The position numbers are program-made. This document shows positions 46,701-49,700 of a stretch of DNA of 64,000 bases, piece after piece (position 1 is the stretch's first letter; the number at the start of each line of letters is the position of its first letter). The DNA comes from Mobula birostris (Eukaryota): assembly GCF_030028105.1 (NCBI RefSeq), contig NC_092375.1, positions 70,655,130 through 70,719,129 of the forward strand, read 5' to 3'.

Positions 46701-49700
46701 CACACTGCCTTGTGGTGCATCTGTGCTGATGGAGATTGTATTTGCCAATTCAAGGTGACTGTTATATGCAAGTGAGGAAATTGAGGTTGCAATCACGCAG
46801 GAATTGAAGCCAATGTCTTGAAGCTTATTAATTAGTTTTGAGGGGATGATAGTATTGAAAGTTAAGCTGTAGTCAATAAAGAGCGTCCTGATGTATGGAT
46901 CTTTGCTGAACAGTTGTTCCAAGTTTGTGTAAAGAACCAATGAAATGGCACCTGCAGTGGATCTGTTGTGCCAGTAGGCAAATTGGAGTGGATCCAAGTC
47001 ACTTCTCAGGCAGGATTTAATATGTTTCATCACCAACCTCTCAAAGCATTTCATCACGGTGGAGGTAAGTATGACTGGACGATAGTCATTGAGACAGGTT
47101 ACCATCTCCTTCTTAGGCATCGACATAATTAAAAACCTGCTTGAAGCAGATGGGTACCTCAGACTGCTGAAGCAAGAGGTTAAAGATATCGATGAACACT
47201 CTAGCCAATTCTTCAGCACAGGTCTTCAGTACTTGGACAGGTACCCCATCTGGGCTGGATGCTCTCGGTGGGTACAACCTCCAGAAGGATGCTCTTACGT
47301 CAACCTCAGAGACTGAAATCGCAGTGTCATTGGGGGCTGTGAGAGTTTGTGAAGGTTCCTCCATGTTTGGACAGGCAAAGCGAGTATAAACGCATTGAGT
47401 TCATCTGGGGGCGAGGCACTTGGATAACTTTGTAGGAACTGATAGAATTCAAGCCCTGCCACAGTTGTAAAGCATACTACAGTGATTCAAGTTTGGTCCA
47501 GAATTGCCACTTTGCATATGAGATGGCTTTCTGGAGATCACACCTGGGCCTTTTCTTACTTGGTGCCAGACCTGAATGCCACTGATCTGGCCCTAAGTAT
47601 TTGCGGATCTCATGGTTCATCTAGGGGTTCTGGTTGGGGAAGACTGAATGATTTTGAGGGTACACACTCACCTATGACTGTTTTTATAAAGTCGAGCAGG
47701 TTGCATGAGCTAGTCAAATATTTTACTGGACTATTTTTGCTCTAAATGAAATCTGCATATCTGCAAATCTGGTTTTCTGTTCTTTTTTTTTACAGCCGTC
47801 AAGCAGTGGTAAAGCAGCTGAGCTGCTAGCCAAAGACAAGGGTACAGTTCCAGGCTTTATTGGATTTGGAGCCACCCAGAATGAATTGGCTTATGTCCCT
47901 GCAGTCCAAGGCTTCGAAGAAGTGGACAGCTTGGTGGATGCTGACTTCCGAATGATTCTGCGCAAAATGTCAAAGAGGGATGCAACCACTAAATTAAAAG
48001 TATGTTTTATTGTTGCATTTTGCTTATTTTCTGTAGCAGTTGTTGGTGTGTGTCACATTATAAACTCACTCAGTGAAGTATTGTGAGTGAAGAGATACAT
48101 TTACTATTTCTGGCATTTCTTTATGCATTTCATTTTTATTCAGTTTGGATGGATGCATATTTGTCTTAATTTTGCTTAAAATTAAGATTTGCAGTTCTAT
48201 TTTTGGAGGTTTACAAATGTGTTGCTTCAGCAAATGAAAGTACCAAAATGTGTACCAAATTCTGTCACAGACTGAGCAAATTTGTGCAATGATTAAAGTT
48301 CAATAATCAATAATAATGAAGTTCAATAATTACATATAATGTCAGAGAAATATATACAATACTAGACCGTTGGGGCACCCTTTGAGAGAAGGGTAGTGCA
48401 GTCTGATGTGACCAGAATGAACATTAAATTTTCCTGAATGCTATTGGTATCACTTTGCTTTGGAAATTGAAGAAGAAAACCTCAGTTTATTAAATAAGAA
48501 TGACGCGTAGCAAGGCAAATATAGCCCCTCCTCGTTTAACGAAGGACACTTTTGATGGTATCATTTCTGGTTGATCTGCCACCCTTGTGCATCTTCTTGT
48601 CATTCTGGAGACGTTCGGTCCTTTCATACGCTGGCTCTTCATCTCTTCTGCTGTTTATTCGTTGTCTCTGATCTTGGAGACGTGCTTTTCTCTGCTCCTT
48701 TGTCTCTTCCTCTCTCCTCCTTCTGTGCCTGTTTTTGTCATTCTGGAGACGTGCAGTCTTTCATCCCCTTGTCTCTTCATCTCTTCTGTTGTTTGTTGTT
48801 TGTCTCTGATCCTGGAGACGTGCATTTCTCAGCTCCTTTCTCTCTTCGTCTCTCCTCCTTCTGTGCCAGTTGTTGTCATTTTGGAGACGTGCATGCCTCT
48901 CCTCCTCTTGTTTCTTCTTCTCTCATCTTTTTTGTCCTGACTCTTTGATCCTGGAGTCCTGCGGCCCTGGCCTCATCTGATTCTTGTTCTCTTCCTCTCC
49001 TTGCTGCTTCCCGACGACGTTTGGTGTCATCTCTTGACCATAATGTCCCCCTTCTCTTTCCATATGGCATAATTAGGCTGACCATATTTTTTTTCACCCT
49101 AATGCTGGATAGAAGCTGTACACTAAATCCTCCAAGATGCTGATTATTCTTGATGATGTGGTTGGCGCTCTCCTAAATGGACATGATATAGTCACCGCTG
49201 TCCTTTGACTGCAGCAAAGGATTTGATGGGTGTTTGGAAGTACATCATTACAATAAGATTTAATTATCTCTTATTGATGGGTCTCAGTTTAATCTGTCCC
49301 AATCCTGCACATGTTGATGGTGATCAGCAGAATGTGACTGCTCGAAATACAGCTGCCCTGTCCTTTTGCTCCGGTTGGCGTCGCTGCTGTGAGCATCGTG
49401 AGTCGCTTCTGAGGTTGGCCATGTGCATGCGTCGTGGTGTCACGTCGCGGTTTCCATCATGGCTGACATTGGCTCTCGGGTGAAAGCGGGGCTGTTGATT
49501 TTGGCAAGTGAGCAATTTTATATGAACATATAACCCTGAACTTTGCCTGCATTCTGTGTTAGTGCATTTTAAGTCGATTTATCCAAAAATAGTGCCGCTG
49601 TAAAGCACCGTTGGCGCTAATTGGAGGTCACAAACAGACAAACAGGCAAGCAGAGCATGAGAGTTTTAGTAGTATATAGATACATCCTGAAATTTCTTTT

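What the first reader, a model, noticed from the sequence alone, without database searches (positions are those of the whole stretch)
48362..49680. Canonical non-autonomous Helitron in LTN1 intron 2
Seen: all the rolling-circle hallmarks on the - strand (A|TC start, CTAG|T end, subterminal hairpin, no TSD) and clean interruption of a LINE tail. The interior keeps many CpGs and the start of a decayed ORF (MPYGKRRG...RRREAARRGREQES) but no Rep or helicase motifs. Established: Helitrons are patchily distributed in vertebrates, can capture host DNA, and have documented horizontal transfers. Inference: a relatively young deletion derivative implying an autonomous partner in this genome. The GC-rich 49100-49520 segment may be promoter/UTR or captured sequence.
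Basis: partly seen in the sequence, partly recalled or inferred. Interest (0 to 1): 0.68.

Follow-up and report, generated by a model that had tools for sequence, protein, structure and literature searches.

The report
Broken Helitron transposon in ray LTN1 intron
This is an ordinary, dead, non-autonomous rolling-circle (Helitron) transposon in an intron of a ray's LTN1 gene; its one unusual feature is that its closest detectable relatives are in snake genomes.

Summary
The observation mostly holds. On the - strand, 48362-49680 starts A|TC and ends CTAG|T. It has a 6-bp hairpin 15 nt from the 3' end and no terminal inverted repeats. It lies antisense in LTN1 intron 2, between exons matching listerin residues 15-82 and 83-115.

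New evidence independent of the termini: the internal ORF is the N-terminus of a Helitron RepHel transposase. It has an MPxGKRR start followed by six 23-aa STPR-type repeats. It runs colinear from the Met with proteins that continue into the Helraiser N-terminal domain. STPR domains are reported almost only in canonical Helitrons (PMC11417382). No Rep or helicase remains. The ORF carries one frameshift and one premature TGA.

So the reading "deletion-derivative, non-autonomous canonical Helitron" is well supported (about 0.85).

Not supported: the "LINE tail". The "GC-rich" segment is only 46.6% GC.

Untestable here: copy number, empty site, autonomous partner and age.

The host is a batoid ray, not human. 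The closest relatives of the ORF are in three snake species (72-76% identity over 54 aa). This hints at horizontal transfer but does not show it.

The parts
49679..49680 (-). 5' terminal TC of the Helitron; host A immediately upstream (complement of 49681)
   Evidence: Direct reading, (..GGATGTA|TCTATATACTACTAAAAC..)
49071..49680 (-). Left terminal sequence plus presumed promoter/5' UTR (610 nt); CpG-rich core at 49330-49500; TATAAA at 49522-49517
   Evidence: Homology to P0005 extends at least 16 codons upstream of the ATG. No Pfam domain above cut-off in its ORFs. The promoter role is inferred.
48879..49070 (-). Start of the transposase ORF remnant: MPYGKRRG... with the first STPR-type unit (frame A). 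Homology-supported up to about 48909.
   Evidence: 39-41 of 54 residues identical to snake proteins P0002 and P0003 and to the unnamed P0005. hhalign is colinear with RepHel N-termini from the Met.
48905..48945 (-). A-rich stretch within which the reading frame shifts (frame A to frame B)
   Evidence: Frames of the tblastn HSPs and ORF list; sequence
48539..48922 (-). Five further 23-aa STPR-type repeat units (frame B). In-frame TGA at 48763-48761; closing TAA at 48538-48536.
   Evidence: P0001. Hits. Pfam STPRs E 0.0016, 19.3 bits, below the cut-off of 27. FMBP-1 STPR structure 5d23, E 0.05.
48586..48924 (.). DNA tandem repeat underlying the STPR units (period 138 nt x 2.4, 85% matches; period 69 nt x 3.6, 71%)
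48486..48491 (-). AATAAA, 45 nt after the closing stop; possible polyadenylation signal retained in the right terminal sequence
   Evidence: function inferred
48377..48394 (-). Subterminal hairpin: 6-bp stem ACCCTT/AAGGGT with a 6-nt loop
   Evidence: in both the MFE and the centroid structure; weak statistically (z -1.25)
48362..48365 (-). 3' terminal CTAG; host T immediately downstream (complement of 48361)
   Evidence: Direct reading
47796..47999 (+). Context: LTN1 exon 2 (listerin residues 15-82)
   Evidence: E 1.3e-29 to 3j92_w
50977..51075 (+). Context: LTN1 exon 3 (listerin residues 83-115). Intron 2 is 48000-50976, and the element fills 1319 of its 2977 nt.
   Evidence: E 1.3e-11; splice sites read

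Best explanation
The region 48362-49680 (- strand) is one insertion of a non-autonomous canonical Helitron (HLE1) in intron 2 of LTN1 of a batoid ray, antisense to the gene.

It is an internal-deletion derivative of an autonomous element. It keeps three parts:
- the left end (TC...) with about 610 nt of presumed promoter/5' UTR;
- the first ~177 codons of the RepHel transposase (basic MPxGKRR start plus six 23-aa STPR-type DNA-binding repeats);
- about 177 nt of right end, with AATAAA, a short hairpin and CTAG.

The zinc-finger-like motif, Rep nuclease and helicase are gone, and the remaining ORF is broken by one frameshift and one premature TGA.

Shown: the anatomy and the homology.

Inferred from the Helraiser experiments (PMC4778049, passages read): it could move only when a RepHel protein from an autonomous relative nicked at the 5' TC, unwound and peeled off one strand, stopped at the hairpin-CTAG signal, and pasted the strand between a host A and T without a target duplication. 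This copy now looks inert.
For: Termini and target site:
- A|TC, CTAG|T and the hairpin 15 nt from the end are read directly. There are no TIRs.
- These are the defining HLE1 features according to PMC11417382 and PMC4778049.

Independent coding evidence:
- P0001 (the STPR part, read with X at the TGA) finds 8 proteins at E <= 0.001 among 1.84 billion representatives.
- Two of them, P0010 and P0009 (E 7.0e-4 and 6.8e-4), begin with the same kind of repeats. They then continue into the Helraiser N-terminal domain: 7lcc_A residues 13-384 at E 1.2e-25 and residues 23-199 at E 1.9e-5.
- A profile of the window ORF plus three close relatives (two snake proteins and the unnamed P0005) aligns from the first Met with a profile of P0007-P0010. 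hhalign gives probability 98.6%, E 5.9e-16.
- Pfam STPRs (PF21107) is above its cut-off in 4 of the 8 hits, P0007-P0010.
- HELIANO reports STPRs 'almost exclusively' in HLE1.

Orientation: 5' TC, then ATG and sense ORF, then AATAAA, hairpin and CTAG.

Non-autonomy:
- 0 of 111 ORFs of 90 aa or more carry a Rep or helicase domain.
- All tblastn hits of the 8 relatives at E < 0.01 fall inside the element and stop within the repeat region.

Sharp compositional break at the left boundary: the flank 48000-48361 is 29% GC with 0 CpG.
Against: - Only one copy is visible. No second copy of the element, of either terminus (up to 6 of 24 and 9 of 36 mismatches allowed) or of the flanks lies in the window. 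The exact boundaries therefore rest on motifs.
- PMC11417382 warns that such motifs are widespread and give many false positives.
- The hairpin is short and not significant alone (23 of 200 shuffles fold as well).
- The flanks TA...TA cannot exclude a 2-bp duplication.
- The window's own STPR match is below Pfam's cut-off (19.3 against 27 bits). The N-terminal ORF alone matches no Pfam family.
- The direct links to RepHel-type proteins are weak (E about 7e-4) and lie in a compositionally biased repeat.
- P0007 shows no Helraiser match. P0006 looks like a spurious repeat hit.
- No relative from any cartilaginous fish was found.
- That the 5' TCTATATACTA... motif looks like other Helitron 5' ends is recalled by me. 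The string searches in papers found nothing relevant.
Confidence: 0.85

Rival explanations
1. It is Helitron-derived sequence, but the boundaries are wrong. It would then be a fragment of a longer or rearranged Helitron (or two nested pieces), and the TC and CTAG picked by the reader are chance motifs.
For: There is a single copy with no empty site. Terminal motifs are common: 79 CTAG|T and 1895 ATC sites in the window on both strands. The hairpin is weak. The right flank 49681-49990 is odd low-complexity sequence of unknown origin.
Against: Only 3 of 79 CTAG|T sites have a 6-bp hairpin upstream, and one of them sits 170 nt after the ORF stop on the right strand. The composition breaks at 48362. 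The part order (5' end, UTR, ATG, ORF, AATAAA, hairpin, CTAG) is what a deletion derivative should have.
Confidence: 0.09
2. It is a host or domesticated gene, or a pseudogene, for an STPR-type DNA-binding protein lying antisense in the LTN1 intron, and not a transposon insertion.
For: It has an ATG, a CpG-rich upstream core (o/e 0.97) and an AATAAA. STPR domains also occur in cellular factors: FMBP-1 (5d23), and 'Zinc finger protein 821', the name one source gives to P0007. Snake annotations carry related sequences as gene models.
Against: The ORF is broken by a frameshift and a premature TGA. It is colinear with RepHel N-termini from the Met. It is bracketed precisely by Helitron ends. None of the relatives found carries a cartilaginous-fish name: the named ones are three snakes, a moth and a nematode, and four are unnamed. 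An old host gene should have fish orthologues.
Confidence: 0.03
3. It belongs to another transposon class: a Helentron/HLE2, or a TA-targeting TIR element.
For: TA is present on both sides of the element. HLE2 elements also carry a 3' stem-loop.
Against: No terminal inverted repeats. The target is A|T, not T|T. The ends are TC...CTAG. STPRs are reported almost only in HLE1. No transposase of another class lies in or next to it.
Confidence: 0.02

Closest known systems
Helibat1 / Helraiser and its non-autonomous HelibatN partners (vespertilionid bats; PMC4778049, passages read)
   Same: 5'-TC and CTAG-3' ends, a palindrome a few nt upstream of the 3' end, and insertion between A and T. Non-autonomous copies share only the ends with the autonomous element. 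The N-terminal part of the transposase is a DNA-binding region. Proteins that share the window's repeat type (P0010, P0009) align to Helraiser residues 13-384 and 23-199.
   Different: No RepHel here. The hairpin has a 6-bp stem, against a 19-bp palindrome. The host is a ray. The window ORF itself gives no direct match to Helraiser (one search returned only FMBP-1, E 0.05). HelibatN3 carries a captured host promoter, whereas this element seems to keep its own 5' region.
Heli1Xen1, a vertebrate Helitron1 family spread by horizontal transfer (Li and Pollet 2025, PMC12001565; abstract and sections 17 and 20 read)
   Same: A canonical Helitron of vertebrates. Non-autonomous copies far outnumber autonomous ones. 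Close relatives occur in distant vertebrate classes.
   Different: The hosts named there are Lacertidae, Cordylidae, a caecilian, frogs and Polypteridae, with no cartilaginous fish and no snake. No sequence from that paper was available (supplements closed), so identity with that family was not tested.
Snake gene models starting with the same N-terminus: P0002 Thamnophis sirtalis and P0003 Ahaetulla prasina ('RNA-binding protein 25-like'), and P0004 Crotalus adamanteus (which holds the repeat region but not the start)
   Same: For P0002 and P0003, 39-41 of 54 N-terminal residues are identical to the window ORF. The STPR repeats are 53-59% identical.
   Different: They are annotated as intact host proteins, fused to unrelated C-terminal parts. 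No Helitron ends could be checked because no snake DNA was available.
STPR domain (Pfam PF21107; silkworm FMBP-1, PDB 5d23)
   Same: 23-aa period and the E-x-R-x-A-R-L register.
   Different: The window copy scores below Pfam's cut-off and is a broken transposase remnant, not a cellular transcription factor.

Membership tests
Canonical Helitron (HLE1) | 5' end begins with TC | tested here: met
   49680-49679 on the - strand; definition from PMC11417382
Canonical Helitron (HLE1) | 3' end is CTRR preceded by a short stem-loop | tested here: met
   CTAG at 48365-48362 and a 6-bp stem at 48394-48377. The stem is short, with z only -1.25. 3 of 79 CTAG|T sites in the window have such a hairpin.
Canonical Helitron (HLE1) | Inserted between host A and T, no target-site duplication, no TIRs | tested here: inconclusive
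   A and T flank the element, and no TIRs appear among the 25 longest inverted pairs. A 2-bp TA duplication cannot be excluded, and no empty site was available.
Canonical Helitron (HLE1) | Ends shared with other copies and with an autonomous RepHel-encoding element in the same genome | not testable with these tools
   No second copy in the 64-kb window. No eukaryotic genome collection on hand.
Canonical Helitron (HLE1), autonomous | Encodes Rep (HUH) nuclease and SF1 helicase | tested here: not met
   0 of 111 ORFs of 90 aa or more. Relatives match only the repeat region. Hence non-autonomous.
Canonical Helitron (HLE1) | Coding remnant homologous to the RepHel N-terminal region | tested here: met
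   hhalign probability 98.6%, colinear from the Met. The link runs through P0010 and P0009 to Helraiser 7lcc_A.
STPR domain (PF21107) | Tandem 23-aa repeats scoring above Pfam's gathering cut-off | tested here: inconclusive
   P0001 scores 19.3 bits against a cut-off of 27, E 0.0016. The period of 69 nt (23 aa) is confirmed. 5d23 gives E 0.05.
Helentron / HLE2 | 11-18-nt terminal inverted repeats; insertion between T and T | tested here: not met
   No TIRs; the target is A|T
Heli1Xen1 family | High nucleotide identity to the Heli1Xen1 consensus | not testable with these tools

The most novel reading that the evidence does not exclude
The ray element and the snake elements belong to one Helitron lineage that moved horizontally between cartilaginous fishes and squamates, or reached both from a third source, long after the hosts diverged.

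Basis:
- Over the first 54 residues, the decayed ray copy is 72-76% identical to the snake sequences. Those sequences are only 83-87% identical to each other.
- The host protein RWDD2B is 59% identical between this ray and snakes.
- Similarity continues upstream of the ATG.

If true, this would add Chondrichthyes and snakes to the vertebrate Helitron transfer network described for Heli1Xen1.

Caveats: the stretch is short and compositionally biased, no DNA comparison was possible, and protein databases sample transposon ORFs haphazardly.
Probability: 0.35. Interest if true: 0.55.

Novelty: new member of a known kind. Interest (0 to 1): 0.3.

Why it matters
By itself this is routine repeat annotation. 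Three modest points go beyond that.

1. It shows that a lone, non-autonomous Helitron can be authenticated without other copies. The retained STPR-type N-terminus of RepHel serves as evidence independent of the notoriously unspecific TC/CTRR signals.

2. Canonical Helitrons in cartilaginous fishes are barely described. In the searches made, only a repeat-class listing for whale shark turned up (PMC8455134; searches).

3. The snake affinity is a concrete, cheaply testable lead for horizontal transfer.

The insertion also fills 44% of LTN1 intron 2 and places a CpG-rich, promoter-like segment antisense to the gene. No effect on LTN1 is shown.

Tried and rejected
- Other copies in the window. I ran blastn of the element, blastn of 2-kb flanks, a mismatch-tolerant scan of both termini, and a sensitive search for adjacent left and right flank matches. 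None was found, so no copy alignment and no empty site were possible.
- LINE tail. tblastn with the window's LINE proteins found nothing beside the element. The nearest RT fragments (46602-47225 and 54578-55261, both on the - strand) lie in intron 1 and about 5 kb away.
- RNA families. 0 Rfam matches in the whole window.
- Captured coding sequence in the terminal regions. 0 of 12 ORFs reach a Pfam cut-off. One sub-threshold bacterial-domain hit (E 0.0016) was taken as noise.
- Direct match of the window ORF to Helraiser. None was found; only FMBP-1 came up, at E 0.05.
- Literature string searches for the 5' terminal motif. They returned 3 unrelated papers and 0 papers.
- Kosek et al. 2021 is not held.
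- Atlas look-alike search of P0001. I dropped the step.
- P0006 (E 4.6e-10) was set aside as an unrelated low-complexity repeat protein. P0008 (Ancylostoma) has STPR repeats but no RepHel-type continuation.
- The bacterial/archaeal genome contigs, phage, plasmid and E. coli collections were not searched, because they cannot hold a ray transposon.
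Full report
Host and setting.
- The window has no N and a vertebrate-like CpG depletion (o/e 0.33).
- It is full of transposon debris: reverse-transcriptase ORFs at four places, an endonuclease ORF, and a Tc1-type HTH (related fragments).
- An ORF at 30426-30869 (+) is RWDD2B. It is 98% identical to Mobula hypostoma, 79-81% to sharks, and 59% to the two snake entries among the 120 rows listed (393 hits at E <= 1e-10 among 453 candidates).
- I therefore take the contig for a batoid ray, not human.
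- LTN1 lies on the + strand. The only candidate for the 14-codon first coding exon is 38531-38572, inside a CpG island.
- Exon 2 (47796-47999) matches listerin residues 15-82 (E 1.3e-29). Exon 3 (50977-51075) matches residues 83-115 (E 1.3e-11).
- The exons were searched one at a time. The joined coding sequence was not built or searched.
- Intron 2 is 48000-50976 (2977 nt). The element fills 1319 nt of it, antisense to LTN1.

The observation.
- Read on the - strand, the element starts ..GGATGTA|TCTATATACTACTAAAAC and ends ..ACCCTTctctcaAAGGGTgccccaacggtCTAG|TATTG.
- This gives the four canonical features listed for HLE1 in PMC11417382 (passages) and for Helibat/Helraiser in PMC4778049 (passages). 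They are a 5' TC, a 3' CTRR (here CTAG), a subterminal stem-loop, and a host A and T on either side.
- None of the 25 longest of 29 inverted-repeat pairs joins the ends.
- The hairpin is only 6 bp and is not significant alone (z -1.25; 23 of 200 shuffles fold as well).
- The flanks read TA on both sides, so a 2-bp duplication cannot be formally excluded.
- The HELIANO paper stresses that TC/CTRR signals are common and give many false positives. I therefore looked for evidence that does not depend on the ends.

Independent evidence from the interior.
- The - strand carries an ATG at 49070 and the ORF MPYGKRRGTLWSRDDTKRRREAARRGREQESDEARAAGLQDQRVRTKKMREEET....
- After a frameshift in an A-rich stretch (about 48945-48905), the reading continues in another frame through 48922-48539. 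There is one in-frame TGA (48763-48761) and a closing TAA (48538-48536).
- The DNA is a 69/138-nt tandem repeat, which corresponds to six 23-aa units of the form E..R.ARLQ[DN][DQ]R....RR.EE.
- An exhaustive phmmer search with the repeat part (X at the TGA) found 8 proteins at E <= 0.001 among 1.84 billion representatives.
- Three of them (P0003, P0004, P0005), together with P0002 from the word-indexed search, are close relatives. These are discussed below.
- P0006 is an unrelated low-complexity protein, which I set aside.
- P0007-P0010 are distant (E 2.6e-6 to 7.0e-4) and all pass Pfam's cut-off for STPRs, PF21107.
- P0010 and P0009 begin with such repeats. They then run into sequence that aligns with the solved Helraiser transposase, 7lcc_A: residues 13-384 at E 1.2e-25, and residues 23-199 at E 1.9e-5.
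- P0007 gave no Helraiser match among its 25 PDB hits.
- A profile of the window ORF plus three close relatives aligns with a profile of P0007-P0010 from the very first Met through the repeats (hhalign 98.6%, E 5.9e-16).
- The window repeats alone score below Pfam's cut-off (19.3 against 27 bits). They hit the FMBP-1 STPR structure only at E 0.05.
- HELIANO lists STPRs among domains stably included in Helitron-like elements and 'almost exclusively found in HLE1'.
- The ORF is therefore the N-terminal piece of a RepHel transposase. It lies in the sense orientation between the TC end and the hairpin-CTAG end, and an AATAAA (48491-48486) follows the stop.
- Nothing of the zinc-finger-like motif, Rep or helicase remains. 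0 of 111 ORFs carry such a domain. The relatives match only the repeat region, and only inside the element.

Chance.
- In the window, on both strands, 3 of 79 CTAG|T sites (22 of 539 CTRR|T) have a perfect hairpin of 6 bp or more within 35 nt upstream. ATCTATATA occurs 3 times.
- Requiring one such 3' site within about 200 nt after the ORF, and the 5' motif within about 700 nt before it, on the right strand, gives a joint chance of roughly 1e-4 by my arithmetic.
- That figure is optimistic, since the 5' motif was defined after the fact.
- Composition also breaks at the left boundary. The flank 48000-48361 has 29% GC and no CpG, against 45% GC and CpG o/e 0.55 inside.

What did not hold.
- The 'LINE tail' found no support. 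Neither flank has a similar copy in the window. No left and right flank matches are adjacent anywhere. The window's LINE proteins find nothing next to the element.
- Without a repeat library this is 'no support', not disproof.
- The 'GC-rich 49100-49520' segment is 46.6% GC. Only 49330-49500 stands out (57% GC, o/e 0.97).
- The CpG level of the whole element is matched by 9% of other windows.
- 'Young' is therefore open.
- Captured coding sequence in the terminal regions is not indicated, since 0 of 12 ORFs are above a Pfam cut-off. Similarity to P0005 already starts at least 16 codons upstream of the ATG. The segment is best read as the element's own 5' UTR/promoter. This is inferred.

Relatives in snakes.
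- The close hits are P0002 (Thamnophis sirtalis) and P0003 (Ahaetulla prasina), both named 'RNA-binding protein 25-like'. The others are P0004 (Crotalus adamanteus, hypothetical protein) and P0005 (an unnamed contig).
- Over the first 54 residues, the ray copy shares 39-41 of 54 residues with P0002, P0003 and P0005. Those three share 45-47 of 54 with each other.
- A host protein, RWDD2B, is only 59% identical between this ray and snakes.
- More distant RepHel N-termini share far less: P0009 is 48% identical over 33 aa.
- This pattern is what horizontal transfer would produce. [quoted passage not shown]
- Against this, the stretch is short and arginine/glutamate-rich, and no nucleotide comparison was possible.
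- No relative from a cartilaginous fish was found. That may only reflect repeat masking in gene annotation.

Known or new.
- Canonical non-autonomous Helitrons are textbook elements.
- The Helitron superfamily is listed in the whale shark repeat annotation (PMC8455134, passage).
- My searches 'Helitron' with 'Chondrichthyes' (12 papers) and with 'elasmobranch' (9 papers) showed no paper devoted to Helitrons of rays or sharks. I read passages of four of them.
- I rate the finding as a new member of a known kind.

Left unchecked.
- Genome-wide copy number, an empty site, the autonomous partner, the insertion's age and nucleotide identity to snake copies.
- The supplements of PMC11417382 and PMC12001565, which may already list this family.

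Noticed in passing
window 50102-50249 (same LTN1 intron 2); related pieces at 51842-51907 and 52221-52261: A ~150-nt near-perfect palindrome folds into one long hairpin (-39.5 kcal/mol, z -7.2; 0 of 200 shuffles fold as well). It has partial copies nearby and looks like a MITE or foldback repeat.
   Followed up: partly
window 7216-8058: A 35-nt satellite of 24 copies, 99% identical. It is open in all three + frames and gives spurious Pfam hits (DUF535, zf_DPOE_2).
   Followed up: partly
window 21350-21827 and 39620-39889: Two more minisatellites: 47-nt unit x 9 (92% matches) and 41-nt unit x 6.6 (96% matches). The second lies in LTN1 intron 1.
   Followed up: no
window 2324-6269 (- strand): A nearly full-length LINE with endonuclease and reverse-transcriptase ORFs and a weak GDSL-lipase-like ORF upstream (sub-threshold, E 9.8e-5). 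An 83%-identical fragment of its 3' ORF lies at 41507-41902, and many older fragments lie elsewhere.
   Followed up: partly
window 9849-10136 (+): A Tc1/mariner transposase HTH remnant (HTH_Tnp_Tc3_2, E 1.1e-12).
   Followed up: no
window 30426-30869 (+) and 38001-39000: An RWDD2B exon lies upstream of a CpG island that holds the LTN1 start (MGGKNKQRTKGNVR, 38531-38572). RWDD2B and LTN1 are thus neighbours on the same strand in this ray.
   Followed up: partly
proteins P0002, P0003, P0004 (snake annotations), not in the window: Snake gene models named 'RNA-binding protein 25-like' (P0002, P0003) or hypothetical protein (P0004) hold a Helitron-type STPR region fused to unrelated sequence. P0002 and P0003 begin with it; in P0004 it lies at residues ~217-320. 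They are probably exonised or mis-annotated transposon copies, or possibly real chimeric genes.
   Followed up: no
window 49681-49990: The element's right flank is odd low-complexity DNA: C-rich runs and a (CT)12 microsatellite at 49965-49989.
   Followed up: partly
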